Assembly (NCBI RefSeq): GCF_000026545.1
Contig: NC_011601.1
From: Escherichia coli O127:H6 str. E2348/69
Lineage (GTDB): Bacteria > Pseudomonadota > Gammaproteobacteria > Enterobacterales > Enterobacteriaceae
Strand: one strand, 5' to 3'
DNA: 64,000 nt
Shown: positions 46,242 to 48,125 of the stretch, piece after piece
How positions within the stretch are numbered: position 1 is the first letter of the stretch
Layout: each line of letters opens with the position of its first letter
Notes under the pieces: model-generated
The model's database searches: none
Told to the model about the DNA's origin: nothing
The model's input: the letters and a program-made list of their open reading frames with translations, nothing else
Made by a program: the position numbers and the translations under genes

Positions 46242-48125
46242 ATGATTAAAAAAGCTTCGCTGCTGACGGCGTGTTCCGTCACGGCATTTTCCGCTTGGGC
46301 ACAGGATACCAGCCCGGATACTCTCGTCGTTACTGCTAACCGTTTTCAGCAGCCAGTAAATACTGTCCTTGCACCTACTGATATTGTTACCCGTGAGGAT
46401 ATTCAACGCTGGCAGTCGAAAGACCTCAACGATGTTATGAGTCATCTCCCCGGTGTAAATATCTCTCAAACTGGTGGAATGGGGACGAGTTCTTCTCTTT
46501 ATGTTCGAGGCACTGAATCGCGCCATGTTTTAGTGTTGATTGACGGTGTGCCGATGGCTCGTGCCGGTATCGACAATGCAATTGATATTAGCCAGTTCCC
46601 GGTATCACTTGTACAGCGTGTTGAATATATTCGTGGGCCGCGTTCTGCCGTTTATGGTTCTGGTGCCATCGGAGGTGTGGTGAACATTATTACAATGAGT
46701 AATGATGAGAAAGCTCAGATCAACGCAGGAATGGGTACAAATGGTTATCAAGCCTATGATGGGGTAATAAATAAACGTTTTGGCGATACGATGGTAACAG
46801 CAGCAGGTGCTTACCAGACGACCAAAGGTTTTAACATTCAGCCTGGCTCACCATACAGTGGTGATAGCGATCGCGATGGATATCGCAACAAACTTTTCTG
46901 GGGGGGGCTGCAGCATAAGTTTAACGATAACTTCTCGGGGTTCTTCCGTGGTTACAGCTACACAGCTAATAATGATTACGACCAGGGCTCGATGTATGGT
47001 TCTGCTACTGGCAACGAAGAAGCTCAGAATTACAACCAGTCCTGGGATACTGGCCTACGCTATAACTCCGGCATCTATTCGTCTCAGTTAATTGCTAACT
47101 ATCAACGACTCAAGAATTATAACTACACAAATAATCTTGGTCGTTATGCGGGAGATGCCACCCTGGATGACATGGAACAGCGTTATATTCAGTGGGGTAA
47201 TAGCATTGAGGTAGGGCATGGTGCAATTAGCGGCGGGATCGATTGGAAACAGGAAAAACTGACGTCCAGCAGCATTACAAAATCAGATGATTACGAACGC
47301 GATACCACCGGGTTATACCTGACTGGACAGCAACAGATTTCCAATGTGACTTTGGAAGCTTCTGGCCGAGAAGATCATGATGAACAGTTTGGCTGGCATG
47401 GTACCTGGCAGACAGCTGCTGGCTGGGAGTTTATTGATGGCTACCAGGCAACACTTTCTTACGGTACCAGTTTTCTTTCGCCTTCTCTTGGACAGCAATA
47501 CGGGGCTGCTCGCTTTGCTTCAATTTATGGTCCTGGTATTGCAGCCAACCCAAATTTGAAGCCAGAAGAATCTAAACAGTGGGAGATTGGAATTGAGGGG
47601 GTAACTGGGACTCTGGATTGGCGGCTCTCAGGATATCGTTATGAAATTCAGAACCTGATTGATTATAAAAGCATAAATAATGTCAACCAGTACATTAATG
47701 TGAAATCAGCCACGATTAAAGGGCTGGAATGGACGGGAAATATTACAACCGGTCCTGTTGAACATCGCTTGACGTTACAATATGTTGACCCGCGCGATGA
47801 TGAAACAGATAAAGTGCTGTACCGTCGGGCAAAACAGCAGGTTAAGTACGAGTTGACTGGACAAGCTTATGGTTTCGAATGGGACGTATCTTACCAATAT
47901 ATAGGTCAACGATACGACAACGCTTATGACGAGACCTCTGGCTCATCACATACAGTTAAATTAGGCGGTGTGAGCTTGTGGGAGCTTGCGGTTGCATATC
48001 CGGTCACCTCTCACCTGACAGTTCGTGGTAAAATAGCCAACCTGTTCGACAAAGATTATGAGACAGTCTATGGCTACCAAACTGCAGGACGGGAATACAC
48101 CTTGTCTGGCAGCTACACCTTCTGA
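46242..48125 (+). CDS. btuB: TonB-dependent vitamin B12 / colicin E outer-membrane receptor (divergent allele)
   Basis: ORF 46197..48125; start at ATG 46242 (MIKKASLLTACSVTAFSAWAQDTSPDTLVVTANRF... with TonB box). N-terminal about 35 aa and the C-terminal about 45 aa match K-12 BtuB, but the central region is clearly homologous yet substantially different from my recollection of K-12. Confidence 0.85.
   Translation: MIKKASLLTACSVTAFSAWAQDTSPDTLVVTANRFQQPVNTVLAPTDIVTREDIQRWQSKDLNDVMSHLPGVNISQTGGMGTSSSLYVRGTESRHVLVLIDGVPMARAGIDNAIDISQFPVSLVQRVEYIRGPRSAVYGSGAIGGVVNIITMSNDEKAQINAGMGTNGYQAYDGVINKRFGDTMVTAAGAYQTTKGFNIQPGSPYSGDSDRDGYRNKLFWGGLQHKFNDNFSGFFRGYSYTANNDYDQGSMYGSATGNEEAQNYNQSWDTGLRYNSGIYSSQLIANYQRLKNYNYTNNLGRYAGDATLDDMEQRYIQWGNSIEVGHGAISGGIDWKQEKLTSSSITKSDDYERDTTGLYLTGQQQISNVTLEASGREDHDEQFGWHGTWQTAAGWEFIDGYQATLSYGTSFLSPSLGQQYGAARFASIYGPGIAANPNLKPEESKQWEIGIEGVTGTLDWRLSGYRYEIQNLIDYKSINNVNQYINVKSATIKGLEWTGNITTGPVEHRLTLQYVDPRDDETDKVLYRRAKQQVKYELTGQAYGFEWDVSYQYIGQRYDNAYDETSGSSHTVKLGGVSLWELAVAYPVTSHLTVRGKIANLFDKDYETVYGYQTAGREYTLSGSYTF

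What the first reader, a model, noticed from the sequence alone, without database searches (positions are those of the whole stretch)
46242..48125. Mosaic btuB allele: K-12-like ends with a strongly divergent central region
The signal peptide, TonB box and first about 35 residues, and the last about 45 residues (the part overlapping murI), match K-12 BtuB as I recall it. The plug domain and most of the barrel are clearly homologous but differ at many positions, and the ORF is 627 aa versus 614 aa in K-12. Because the riboswitch upstream and murI downstream look K-12-like, this suggests an interspecies or interlineage recombination replacing the middle of btuB. BtuB is the receptor for E-type colicins and phage BF23, so such a replacement would be consistent with selection to escape them while keeping B12 uptake.
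Basis: partly seen in the sequence, partly recalled or inferred. Interest (0 to 1): 0.55.

Follow-up and report, generated by a model that had tools for sequence, protein, structure and literature searches.

The report
Divergent btuB allele swapped by recombination
This E. coli strain (EPEC E2348/69) carries a vitamin B12 receptor gene whose middle 1.6 kb was replaced by recombination with a very different version of the same gene; about 5% of E. coli share this version, and it may change which phages and colicins can attack them.

Summary
The window is E. coli E2348/69. btuB (46242-48125, 627 aa) is identical to K-12 for its first 105 nt and nearly identical for its last about 160 nt. Between 46347 and 47963 only about 55% of aligned bases match, and synonymous sites are saturated. 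The flanks differ from K-12 by about 2.5%.

The gene is an intact BtuB. It passes NCBI's BtuB models, the predicted fold matches BtuB crystal structures, the cobalamin riboswitch is intact, and the trmA-btuB-murI gene order is kept.

The allele is not private. 282 of 5,426 complete E. coli genomes carry the same block. Among the nine carriers compared it differs at no more than 5 of 1,617 sites, while their flanks differ by 1-2%, and the crossover points vary. This shows recent horizontal spread by homologous recombination.

E. coli holds at least four such block classes at this locus. Relatives of both main classes also occur in Salmonella and Citrobacter.

No recent donor was found; the nearest non-E. 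coli relative is 88% aa / 80% nt identical. Escape from colicins or phages is plausible but untested, and one paper hints that E2348/69 is still colicin-sensitive.

This is a new member of a known kind, of moderate interest.

The parts
45987..46176 (+). Cobalamin riboswitch in the btuB leader. It is of the recipient (E. coli) type and lies outside the replaced block.
   Evidence: Rfam RF00174 scores 86.8 bits against a gathering score of 31.5. It is annotated as a riboswitch in RefSeq. Only 1 difference from K-12 lies within it (46100).
46242..48125 (+). btuB coding sequence, 627 aa, the class B (E2348-type) allele.
   Evidence: ORF. RefSeq product WP_012579030.1, annotated BtuB. NCBIfam NF007926 scores 1040 bits (cut-off 836) and TIGR01779 scores 662 (cut-off 599.7). 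The AlphaFold model (pTM 0.79) matches BtuB crystal structures with TM 0.90-0.93.
46242..46346 (+). 5' conserved anchor: signal peptide, N-terminus and TonB box (DTLVVTA). It is identical to K-12, and the left crossover lies here or just upstream (46101-46346).
   Evidence: No differences from K-12 in 46101-46346. The last phylogroup-B2 marker is at 46100 and the first block mismatch at 46347. TonB box 7/7 conserved.
46347..47963 (+). Replaced block (codons 36-574): most of the plug, strands 1-20 of the barrel and loops L1-L10.
   Evidence: About 55% nt identity to K-12, pS 0.82, dN 0.42. Plug 65% aa identity, loops 19-54%. GC 45.6% and GC3 41%, against 50.6% for the window. The central 1,001 bp of the block is at least 99.7% identical in the listed genomes among 282 E. 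coli carriers.
47505..47546 (+). Two insertions (6 + 5 aa, residues 422-427 and 431-435) in extracellular loop L7 relative to K-12.
   Evidence: Protein alignment. pLDDT is below 50 at residues 425-432 in the model. Loop numbering from PMC7360065.
47964..48125 (+). 3' conserved anchor: strands 21-22, loop L11 and the C-terminus, overlapping the murI start. The right crossover lies at about 47997-48013.
   Evidence: Only 2 differences from K-12 (47984, 47996). 47996 A is shared with most class-B carriers, while 48014 is of the recipient type. L11 is 16/16 identical. This region is nearly invariant across 38 enterobacterial BtuBs.
48070..48927 (+). murI (glutamate racemase). It overlaps the last 56 nt of btuB and is of the recipient type.
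   Evidence: RefSeq annotation. dS to K-12 is 0.084.
44773..45873 (-). trmA, the upstream neighbour. It is of the recipient (phylogroup B2) type.
   Evidence: ORF and annotation. It shares B2 markers with strain PMV-1. dS to K-12 is 0.13.

Best explanation
What it is. The gene is a working vitamin B12 outer-membrane receptor (BtuB) of a deeply divergent allele class, here called class B. It sits at the normal trmA-btuB-murI locus. Its central 1.6 kb came in by homologous recombination, with crossovers in the two stretches that all enterobacterial btuB genes keep nearly unchanged. These are the leader/signal-peptide/TonB-box end and the last about 50 codons that overlap murI.

Shown:
- The mosaic structure.
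- The presence of the same block in 282 of 5,426 complete E. coli genomes.
- Its near-identity across unrelated flank backgrounds, with varying junctions.
- Strong purifying selection.
- The existence of at least four such block classes in E. coli (A about 91.5%, B 5.2%, C about 1.6%, D 1.7%), plus a fifth in an E. coli-like Escherichia strain.

Inferred:
- The class B block entered the E. coli population once, recently relative to phylogroup divergence, from an unsampled lineage, and then spread by recombination between strains.
- The protein still imports B12 under riboswitch control.
- The minority classes are kept in the population because BtuB is the receptor for E-group colicins and many T5-like and other siphophages, so rare receptor types are favoured (negative frequency-dependent selection).

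The confidence score applies mainly to what the allele is and how it got there. The phage/colicin selective driver on its own I put at about 0.45.
For: - Mosaic and junctions.
- Identity as BtuB: the NCBIfam equivalog models are passed; the closest solved structures are BtuB (E 6e-209); the predicted fold has TM 0.90-0.93 to BtuB; the riboswitch is intact; the same gene order is seen in 40+ other species that carry class-B-like genes.
- Purifying selection: dN/dS 0.03-0.05 against Citrobacter, Salmonella and Kluyvera relatives.
- Population data: 282 genomes carry the block at >=99% identity. Among nine carriers the block differs at no more than 5 of 1,617 sites, while the flanks differ at 33-78 of 3,654 sites. 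Left (46277/46283/46286) and right (47996/48014) junction haplotypes differ.
- Cross-lineage sharing: Escherichia strain SCPM-O-B-8794 has block dS 0.064 but flank dS 0.31.
- Other classes with the same layout.
- Both main lineages are present in Salmonella enterica and the Citrobacter freundii complex, judged from source names.
- The BtuB tree is incongruent with genus boundaries.
- The extracellular loops carry all the indels and 1.3-2x higher pN.
- Principle that BtuB type can gate a T5-like phage: K-12 has EOP 0 and K-12 expressing Yersinia BtuB has EOP 1 (PMC8624392).
- Natural btuB knock-outs (an IS421 insertion and a frameshift) show that the gene is under attack in nature.
Against: - No donor was found. 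The best non-E. coli relative is 79.5% nt (C. portucalensis) among representatives of 100,044 species, and 88% aa among 5.8 billion protein clusters.
- Block dS to Citrobacter (1.63) equals flank dS (1.36-1.83). The block is therefore as old relative to Citrobacter as E. coli itself, and a long-standing Escherichia-resident lineage cannot be excluded.
- Divergence is spread over the whole gene, not restricted to loops, and pN/pS is below 1 everywhere. There is no direct signature of positive selection.
- Residues that contact cobalamin in K-12 simulations are mostly changed (14 of 34 kept outside L11). Unchanged B12 uptake is therefore assumed, not shown.
- PMC10924462 implies that E2348/69 is still killed by S. 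sonnei colicin supernatants. This would argue against escape from those colicins; I could not see the figure.
Confidence: 0.8

Rival explanations
1. The import is real, but the benefit is not receptor escape. Either the block is selectively neutral and spread by hitch-hiking or drift, or the classes differ in which corrinoids they take up (cobalamin, pseudocobalamin, cobinamide), as reported for BtuB paralogs of Bacteroides (that report is from my own knowledge).
For: - The plug and the substrate-contact residues differ strongly: plug contacts 4/16 kept, L3 2/8, L2 0/3, and 3 of the 5 Ca-cage aspartates kept.
- There is no pN/pS above 1 in the loops.
- E2348/69 is apparently still colicin-sensitive.
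Against: - The same block has been fixed repeatedly on unrelated backgrounds with independent junctions. That is hard to get by drift alone.
- The loops are the fastest-evolving part and hold all the indels.
- BtuB is a heavily used phage and colicin receptor (PMC8594841).
Confidence: 0.3
2. An ancient balanced polymorphism inherited vertically within E. coli. Classes A and B have both been in the species since before the phylogroups split, with no recent transfer.
For: - Classes A and B are saturated at synonymous sites.
- Both lineages also occur in Salmonella and Citrobacter.
- The block's dS to Citrobacter is similar to that of the flanks.
Against: Class B blocks differ by no more than 0.3% across carriers whose flanks differ by 1-2%, and by 2% from a lineage whose flanks have dS 0.31. 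Vertical descent predicts block divergence at least equal to flank divergence. Class A alleles do show phylogroup-level divergence (95.8-100% identity).
Confidence: 0.05
3. Rapid divergence in place (hypermutation or strong positive selection) of an originally K-12-like gene in the E2348/69 lineage.
For: None beyond the raw divergence.
Against: - Synonymous sites are saturated (pS 0.82), whereas adjacent genes have dS about 0.1.
- Close relatives of the block (83-88% aa) exist in other genera.
- The boundaries are sharp.
- The block's GC is 5 points lower than the flanks.
Confidence: 0.01
4. An assembly or chimera artefact, or a non-B12 TonB-dependent receptor mis-called as btuB.
For: None.
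Against: - 282 independent complete genomes, including a second O127:H6 record (H75), carry the block.
- The BtuB-specific equivalog HMMs are passed, while siderophore and haem receptor models fall far below their cut-offs.
- The riboswitch and gene order are intact.
Confidence: 0.01

Closest known systems
E. coli K-12 BtuB (PDB 1NQE/1NQH/2GSK), the receptor for cobalamin, E-group colicins and phage BF23
   Same: Same locus, same riboswitch, identical signal peptide and TonB box, identical loop L11 and C-terminus. Same predicted plug plus 22-strand barrel fold (TM 0.90-0.93).
   Different: The central 539 residues are only about 50% identical (about 57% over the whole protein). Indels add a net 13 residues, including 11 extra residues in loop L7. 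Most K-12 cobalamin-contact residues outside L11 and 2 of the 5 Ca-cage aspartates are changed.
Mosaic evolution of E. coli outer-membrane barrel genes fhuA, lamB, ompA, ompC and ompF (Chen et al., bioRxiv 10.1101/2021.09.21.461324)
   Same: Recombination within a gene produces discrete protein groups at a phage-receptor locus while the global fold is kept.
   Different: In those genes the variation sits in short hypervariable regions of the extracellular loops, which are shuffled combinatorially. Here one 1.6 kb block that includes plug and strands is exchanged as a unit between conserved ends, with saturated synonymous divergence between classes. btuB does not occur in the main text of that paper.
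Class-B-like BtuB of Citrobacter (freundii complex, portucalensis, braakii), Kluyvera, Klebsiella spallanzanii and many Salmonella enterica serovars and subspecies
   Same: Same lineage of the protein (83-88% aa), same trmA-btuB-murI gene order, and the same 627-629 aa or 618 aa lengths.
   Different: Only 75-80% nt identity, and dS is about equal to that of the flanking housekeeping genes. None of them is the recent donor.
Island-borne second btuB next to iha in the LAA/LPA pathogenicity islands of LEE-negative STEC (PMC6920203, PMC9729726)
   Same: It shows that foreign btuB genes with their own riboswitch do enter E. coli. The island copy is 89-90% nt identical to native-locus class C alleles.
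   Different: It is an additional copy at another locus, with non-K-12 ends, and belongs to the class A/C lineage. The E2348/69 allele is a replacement at the native locus and belongs to class B.

Membership tests
BtuB (TonB-dependent cobalamin receptor) | Scores above the curated cut-offs of the BtuB-specific equivalog HMMs | tested here: met
   NF007926 scores 1040.4 bits (cut-off 836) and TIGR01779 scores 662.2 (cut-off 599.7). All other TonB-dependent receptor models fall far below their cut-offs.
BtuB (TonB-dependent cobalamin receptor) | N-terminal TonB box, plug domain and 22-strand beta-barrel | tested here: met
   TonB box DTLVVTA 7/7 identical. Pfam PF07715 + PF00593 are recorded for the cluster. 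The AlphaFold model (pTM 0.79) has BtuB structures as its best PDB matches, with TM 0.90-0.93.
BtuB (TonB-dependent cobalamin receptor) | Expression under a cobalamin riboswitch, at the trmA-btuB-murI locus | tested here: met
   RF00174 scores 86.8 bits at 45987-46176. Annotation.
BtuB (TonB-dependent cobalamin receptor) | Conserved Ca2+ 'aspartate cage' and cobalamin-contact residues | tested here: inconclusive
   D193, D195 and D230 are kept; D179 and D241 are both Asn (these positions are recalled from Chimento et al. 2003, not checked against coordinates). Of the contact residues listed from simulations in PMC7360065, 14/34 are kept outside L11 and 5/5 in L11.
BtuB (TonB-dependent cobalamin receptor) | Transports vitamin B12; binds E colicins and BF23 | not testable with these tools
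   This needs allele swaps with growth and killing assays. The only indirect hint is the text of PMC10924462.
Loop-hypervariable mosaic outer-membrane genes (fhuA/ompC type) | Variation confined to short hypervariable regions in extracellular loops on a conserved scaffold | tested here: not met
   Plug 65% aa identity, non-loop barrel 38-60%, loops 19-54%. pN is 0.21 (plug), 0.33 (barrel) and 0.39 (loops) against K-12.
Loop-hypervariable mosaic outer-membrane genes (fhuA/ompC type) | Recombination within the gene generating discrete groups within the species | tested here: met
   Four classes at the locus share the same conserved ends. Junctions vary among carriers.
Trans-species allelic polymorphism | Allele classes older than the species and shared by several species | tested here: met
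   pS between classes is 0.77-0.82, i.e. saturated. A-like and B-like proteins are both named from Salmonella enterica and the Citrobacter freundii complex. The BtuB tree cuts across genera.
Trans-species allelic polymorphism | Maintained by balancing selection rather than re-created by repeated transfer | not testable with these tools
   This needs population-genomic modelling on full phylogenies. The recent spread of class B shows that transfer is at least part of the story.
Island-borne accessory btuB (LAA/LPA) | An extra copy inside a pathogenicity island, next to iha | tested here: not met
   The E2348/69 gene is the only btuB match in its genome (1 place) and lies between trmA and murI.

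The most novel reading that the evidence does not exclude
btuB may be a multi-class 'receptor-type' locus of Enterobacteriaceae. Escherichia holds at least five exchangeable 1.6 kb blocks, and the same deep lineages are shared with Salmonella and Citrobacter. The blocks are swapped between conserved ends. The class a strain carries would then decide its susceptibility to E-group colicins and to BtuB-dependent (T5-like and other) phages, and perhaps its corrinoid preference. If so, K-12-based receptor assignments would not transfer to about 9% of E. coli strains.
Probability: 0.35. Interest if true: 0.65.

Novelty: new member of a known kind. Interest (0 to 1): 0.45.

Why it matters
- BtuB is the textbook receptor for E-group colicins and for many phages, and nearly all of that work uses the K-12 protein.
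- About 1 in 11 complete E. coli genomes carries a BtuB whose central part is very different from K-12: about 50% identical for classes B and D, and about 80% for class C. These include the prototype EPEC strain E2348/69.
- If the classes differ in binding, this would affect several things: predicting phage host range from genomes, the design of phage cocktails and colicin-based antimicrobials, and the interpretation of natural colicin resistance.
- The locus is also a clean natural example of block-wise allele exchange using conserved gene ends as recombination anchors.
- It is directly testable by allele swaps in K-12.

Tried and rejected
- Donor search. One scan of 100,044 species representatives with nucleotide comparison, one search of 5.8 billion protein clusters and one plasmid search. 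Nothing outside Escherichia is closer than 79.5% nt / 88% aa, so no donor can be named. The plasmid hits are btuB genes on large replicons or probably mis-assigned chromosome pieces, at no more than 77% identity.
- The '90 genomes at 95-99% identity' looked like a second class B subtype. Searches suggest that the extra 90 genomes with >=80% coverage are class D (H175 aligns end to end at 73%).
- The class C count (163) exceeded what the locus could hold. One search showed that the sampled genome of the 79-strong group at 90-95% identity carries an extra island-borne copy, which would explain the excess.
- Chi sites. 12 in the window against 2.5 expected. The nearest are at 43768 and 48738 and are not at the junctions. 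This is ordinary for E. coli and was dropped.
- Colicin contact mapping. No coordinates or residue lists for the BtuB-colicin E3/E2 interface were reachable, so I could not score conservation of the colicin-binding surface.
- Positive selection. Loop pN/pS is higher than elsewhere but below 1, and synonymous sites are saturated, so the test is uninformative.
- Literature. Ten full-text searches found no paper describing btuB allele classes or this mosaic. The library lacks most subscription journals, so prior description cannot be excluded.
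Full report
**What is there**

The window is 100% identical to E. coli E2348/69 (EPEC O127:H6) over the region.
- An ORF at 46242-48125 (+) encodes 627 aa.
- It is preceded by a cobalamin riboswitch at 45987-46176 (Rfam RF00174, 86.8 bits).
- murI follows at 48070-48927, overlapping btuB by 56 nt, and then an rrn operon.
- trmA lies upstream on the minus strand.
- RefSeq annotates the ORF as BtuB (WP_012579030.1).

**Checking the observation**

I aligned fabR..rrs of the window to the same stretch of a K-12 strain (L001).
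- The 5' flank differs at 54 of 2,377 sites and the 3' flank at 34 of 1,277, which is ordinary phylogroup-level divergence.
- There are no differences from 46101 to 46346.
- From 46347 to 47963, 740 of 1,650 alignment columns differ (about 55% identity), with several indels.
- Only two differences follow (47984, 47996), and none until 48303.
- At protein level residues 1-35 and the last 46 are identical to K-12. The whole proteins are about 57% identical.
- In the block pS is 0.82 (saturated) and dN 0.42. In trmA and murI dS is 0.13 and 0.08.

**Is it a real, working btuB?**

- It exceeds the curated cut-offs of both NCBIfam BtuB equivalog models (1040 vs 836; 662 vs 599.7). Every siderophore and haem receptor model falls far below its cut-off.
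- Its closest solved relatives are the K-12 BtuB structures (E about 1e-208).
- An AlphaFold model built on 38 homologs (pTM 0.79) matches BtuB crystal structures with TM 0.90-0.93. The low-confidence segments fall in extracellular loops.
- The TonB box is unchanged.
- Against its relatives in Citrobacter, Salmonella, Kluyvera and Klebsiella, dN/dS is 0.03-0.05.
- In 40 or more other species the same lineage of gene occupies the same trmA-btuB-murI position.

I infer that it imports B12, but this is not shown. Many residues that contact cobalamin in K-12 simulations (PMC7360065) are changed. Two of the five Ca-cage aspartates are Asn (the cage positions are from my memory of Chimento et al. 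2003).

**How it got there**

The allele is not private to E2348/69.
- 282 of 5,426 complete E. coli genomes carry the block. The full gene is 99.4-100% identical in the rows sampled.
- I compared nine carriers over fabR..rrs. Their flanks fall into at least four backgrounds that differ at 33-78 of 3,654 sites. Some have the sthA-fabR arrangement and others the M20/citrate-symporter arrangement. The block itself differs at no more than 5 of 1,617 sites.
- Junction haplotypes differ. At 46277/46283/46286 six carriers have T-A-C and three, including E2348/69, have the recipient-type C-G-A. At 47996 and 48014 there are again different combinations.
- For E2348/69 the last phylogroup-B2 marker on the left is 46100 and the first recipient marker on the right is 48014. 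The crossovers therefore lie in 46101-46346 and 47997-48013.
- A strain labelled E. coli SCPM-O-B-8794, whose flanks have dS 0.31 to E2348/69 (a different Escherichia lineage), carries the block with dS 0.064.
- The block has GC 45.6% (GC3 41%) against 50.6% for the window.

Together these results show recent horizontal spread of one block by homologous recombination. They exclude vertical inheritance, divergence in place and assembly artefact.

**The wider pattern**

The locus holds at least four classes in E. coli.

| Class | Example | Share of genomes | Length | Relation |
|---|---|---|---|---|
| A | K-12 | about 91.5% | 614 aa | internal identity 95.8-100%, as expected for a long-resident allele |
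| B | E2348/69 | 282 genomes, 5.2% | 627 aa | this finding |
| C | E5 / 23CRST031 | about 1.6% | 614 aa | 83% aa to A |
| D | EC42405 / HKUOPY1 | 90 genomes, 1.7% | 612 aa | 77% aa to B; two subtypes at 92% nt |

- An E. coli-like strain, Escherichia sp. MOD1-EC7003 (flank dS 0.12-0.15), carries a fifth block.
- All classes share the same layout: a divergent block from about nt 100 to about nt 1700 between K-12-like ends.
- All pairs of classes compared here are saturated at synonymous sites.
- A-like proteins are named from Salmonella enterica (the main type, 86% aa), Enterobacter, Scandinavium, Cronobacter and one Citrobacter freundii record.
- B-like proteins are named from the Citrobacter freundii complex, Kluyvera, Phytobacter, Klebsiella spallanzanii and many Salmonella enterica serovars and subspecies.
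- A neighbour-joining tree of BtuB cuts across genera.

The two deep lineages are therefore shared across species and re-assorted at a syntenic locus.

**Donor**

None was found.
- The closest non-Escherichia sequence is 79.5% nt identical (Citrobacter portucalensis).
- The closest protein clusters are 88% identical (one Salmonella Saintpaul record and Citrobacter sp. Marseille-Q6884).
- Block dS to C. portucalensis (1.63) is the same as for trmA (1.36) and murI (1.83).

The source is therefore about as far from Citrobacter as E. coli is. It is either an unsampled relative or a rare Escherichia lineage.

**Why it might be kept**

Everything in this section is inference.
- BtuB is the receptor for E-group colicins and for many siphophages (PMC8594841).
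- A T5-like phage that cannot plate on K-12 plates at EOP 1 once K-12 expresses a foreign BtuB (PMC8624392). The BtuB type alone can therefore gate infection.
- In class B the loops are the least conserved parts (19-54% identity), hold all the indels including 11 extra residues in L7, and have 1.3-2x the pN of the rest.
- Natural knock-outs of btuB occur: an IS421 insertion and a frameshift.

Against a simple escape story:
- Divergence covers the plug and strands as well, and pN/pS never exceeds 1.
- L11 is unchanged.
- PMC10924462 lists E2348/69 among its strains, yet its text names only two other wild-type E. coli as resistant to S. sonnei colicin supernatants. I could not see the figure.
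- The changed substrate-contact residues leave open a difference in corrinoid handling.

**Comparison with what is known**

- The nearest described phenomenon is the mosaic evolution of fhuA, lamB, ompA, ompC and ompF in E. coli (bioRxiv 10.1101/2021.09.21.461324).
- The btuB case shares recombination within the gene and discrete groups. It fails that family's defining feature, loop-restricted hypervariable regions. Here a whole 1.6 kb block is exchanged.
- An island-borne extra btuB next to iha (LAA/LPA islands) is known (PMC6920203, PMC9729726), and I found it again. It is related to class C, not to this allele.
- I found no paper describing btuB allele classes (ten searches), but the library is incomplete.

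**Verdict**

The recombination reading is supported and extended. The selective reading is open. This is a new member of a known kind: a divergent BtuB class at a locus that exchanges alleles by recombination. It is of moderate interest because of its bearing on colicin and phage receptor biology, and it is easy to test.

Noticed in passing
L065:3838-5946 (E. coli O22:H8 RM10809-3, NZ_CP023165.1): A second, intact btuB (614 aa) with its own cobalamin riboswitch sits in an island next to iha, a sulfatase and a porin. 79 of 5,426 genomes match at the same 90-95% identity; I checked the genomic context of only this one. It is 89-90% nt identical to native-locus class C alleles and its ends are not K-12-like. 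The island context (LAA/LPA) is already published (PMC6920203, PMC9729726). It could be a route by which foreign btuB alleles enter the species.
   Followed up: partly
H31 (NZ_CP141581.1, strain ECO-104) and L060:4543-6425 (strain Z1323CEC0013): Natural btuB knock-outs: a K-12-type btuB split by an IS4-like IS421 element, and a class B btuB annotated as frameshifted.
   Followed up: no
window 42242-43620: E2348/69, like PMV-1, PE164 and GN02050, has an M20 aminoacylase gene and a citrate-proton symporter gene upstream of fabR. K-12-like backgrounds have sthA directly there. This presence/absence difference helped to tell the flank backgrounds apart.
   Followed up: partly
window 48628, 48633, 48924, 49064-49080: In murI and the murI-rrs spacer, E2348/69 shares variants with class-B carriers of other backgrounds that both class A references (K-12, PMV-1) lack. 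B2-type markers are interleaved between them. These could be extra short co-transferred patches or common polymorphisms; two references are too few to tell.
   Followed up: partly
window 46347-47963; L052:4106-5683: The imported blocks are lower in GC than the genome: class B 45.6% (GC3 41%) and class C 44.6% (GC3 38%), against 50.6% for the window and 49-52% for class-B-like genes of Citrobacter and Salmonella. The cause is unexplained; it may say something about the source.
   Followed up: no
L013 (Escherichia sp. MOD1-EC7003) 4001-5569: A strain whose flanks are E. coli-like (dS 0.12-0.15) carries yet another btuB block: 75% nt to class B, GC3 67%. No genome in the complete-genome collection matched this class in the searches run here.
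   Followed up: partly
window 51081-51189: An Rfam StyR-44 match (120.8 bits) lies immediately upstream of the 23S gene of the rrn operon downstream of murI. I take this to be an ordinary feature of enterobacterial rrn operons.
   Followed up: no
whole window: There are 12 Chi sites (GCTGGTGG) against 2.5 expected from shuffles. This is the usual E. coli over-representation, and none is at the btuB junctions.
   Followed up: yes
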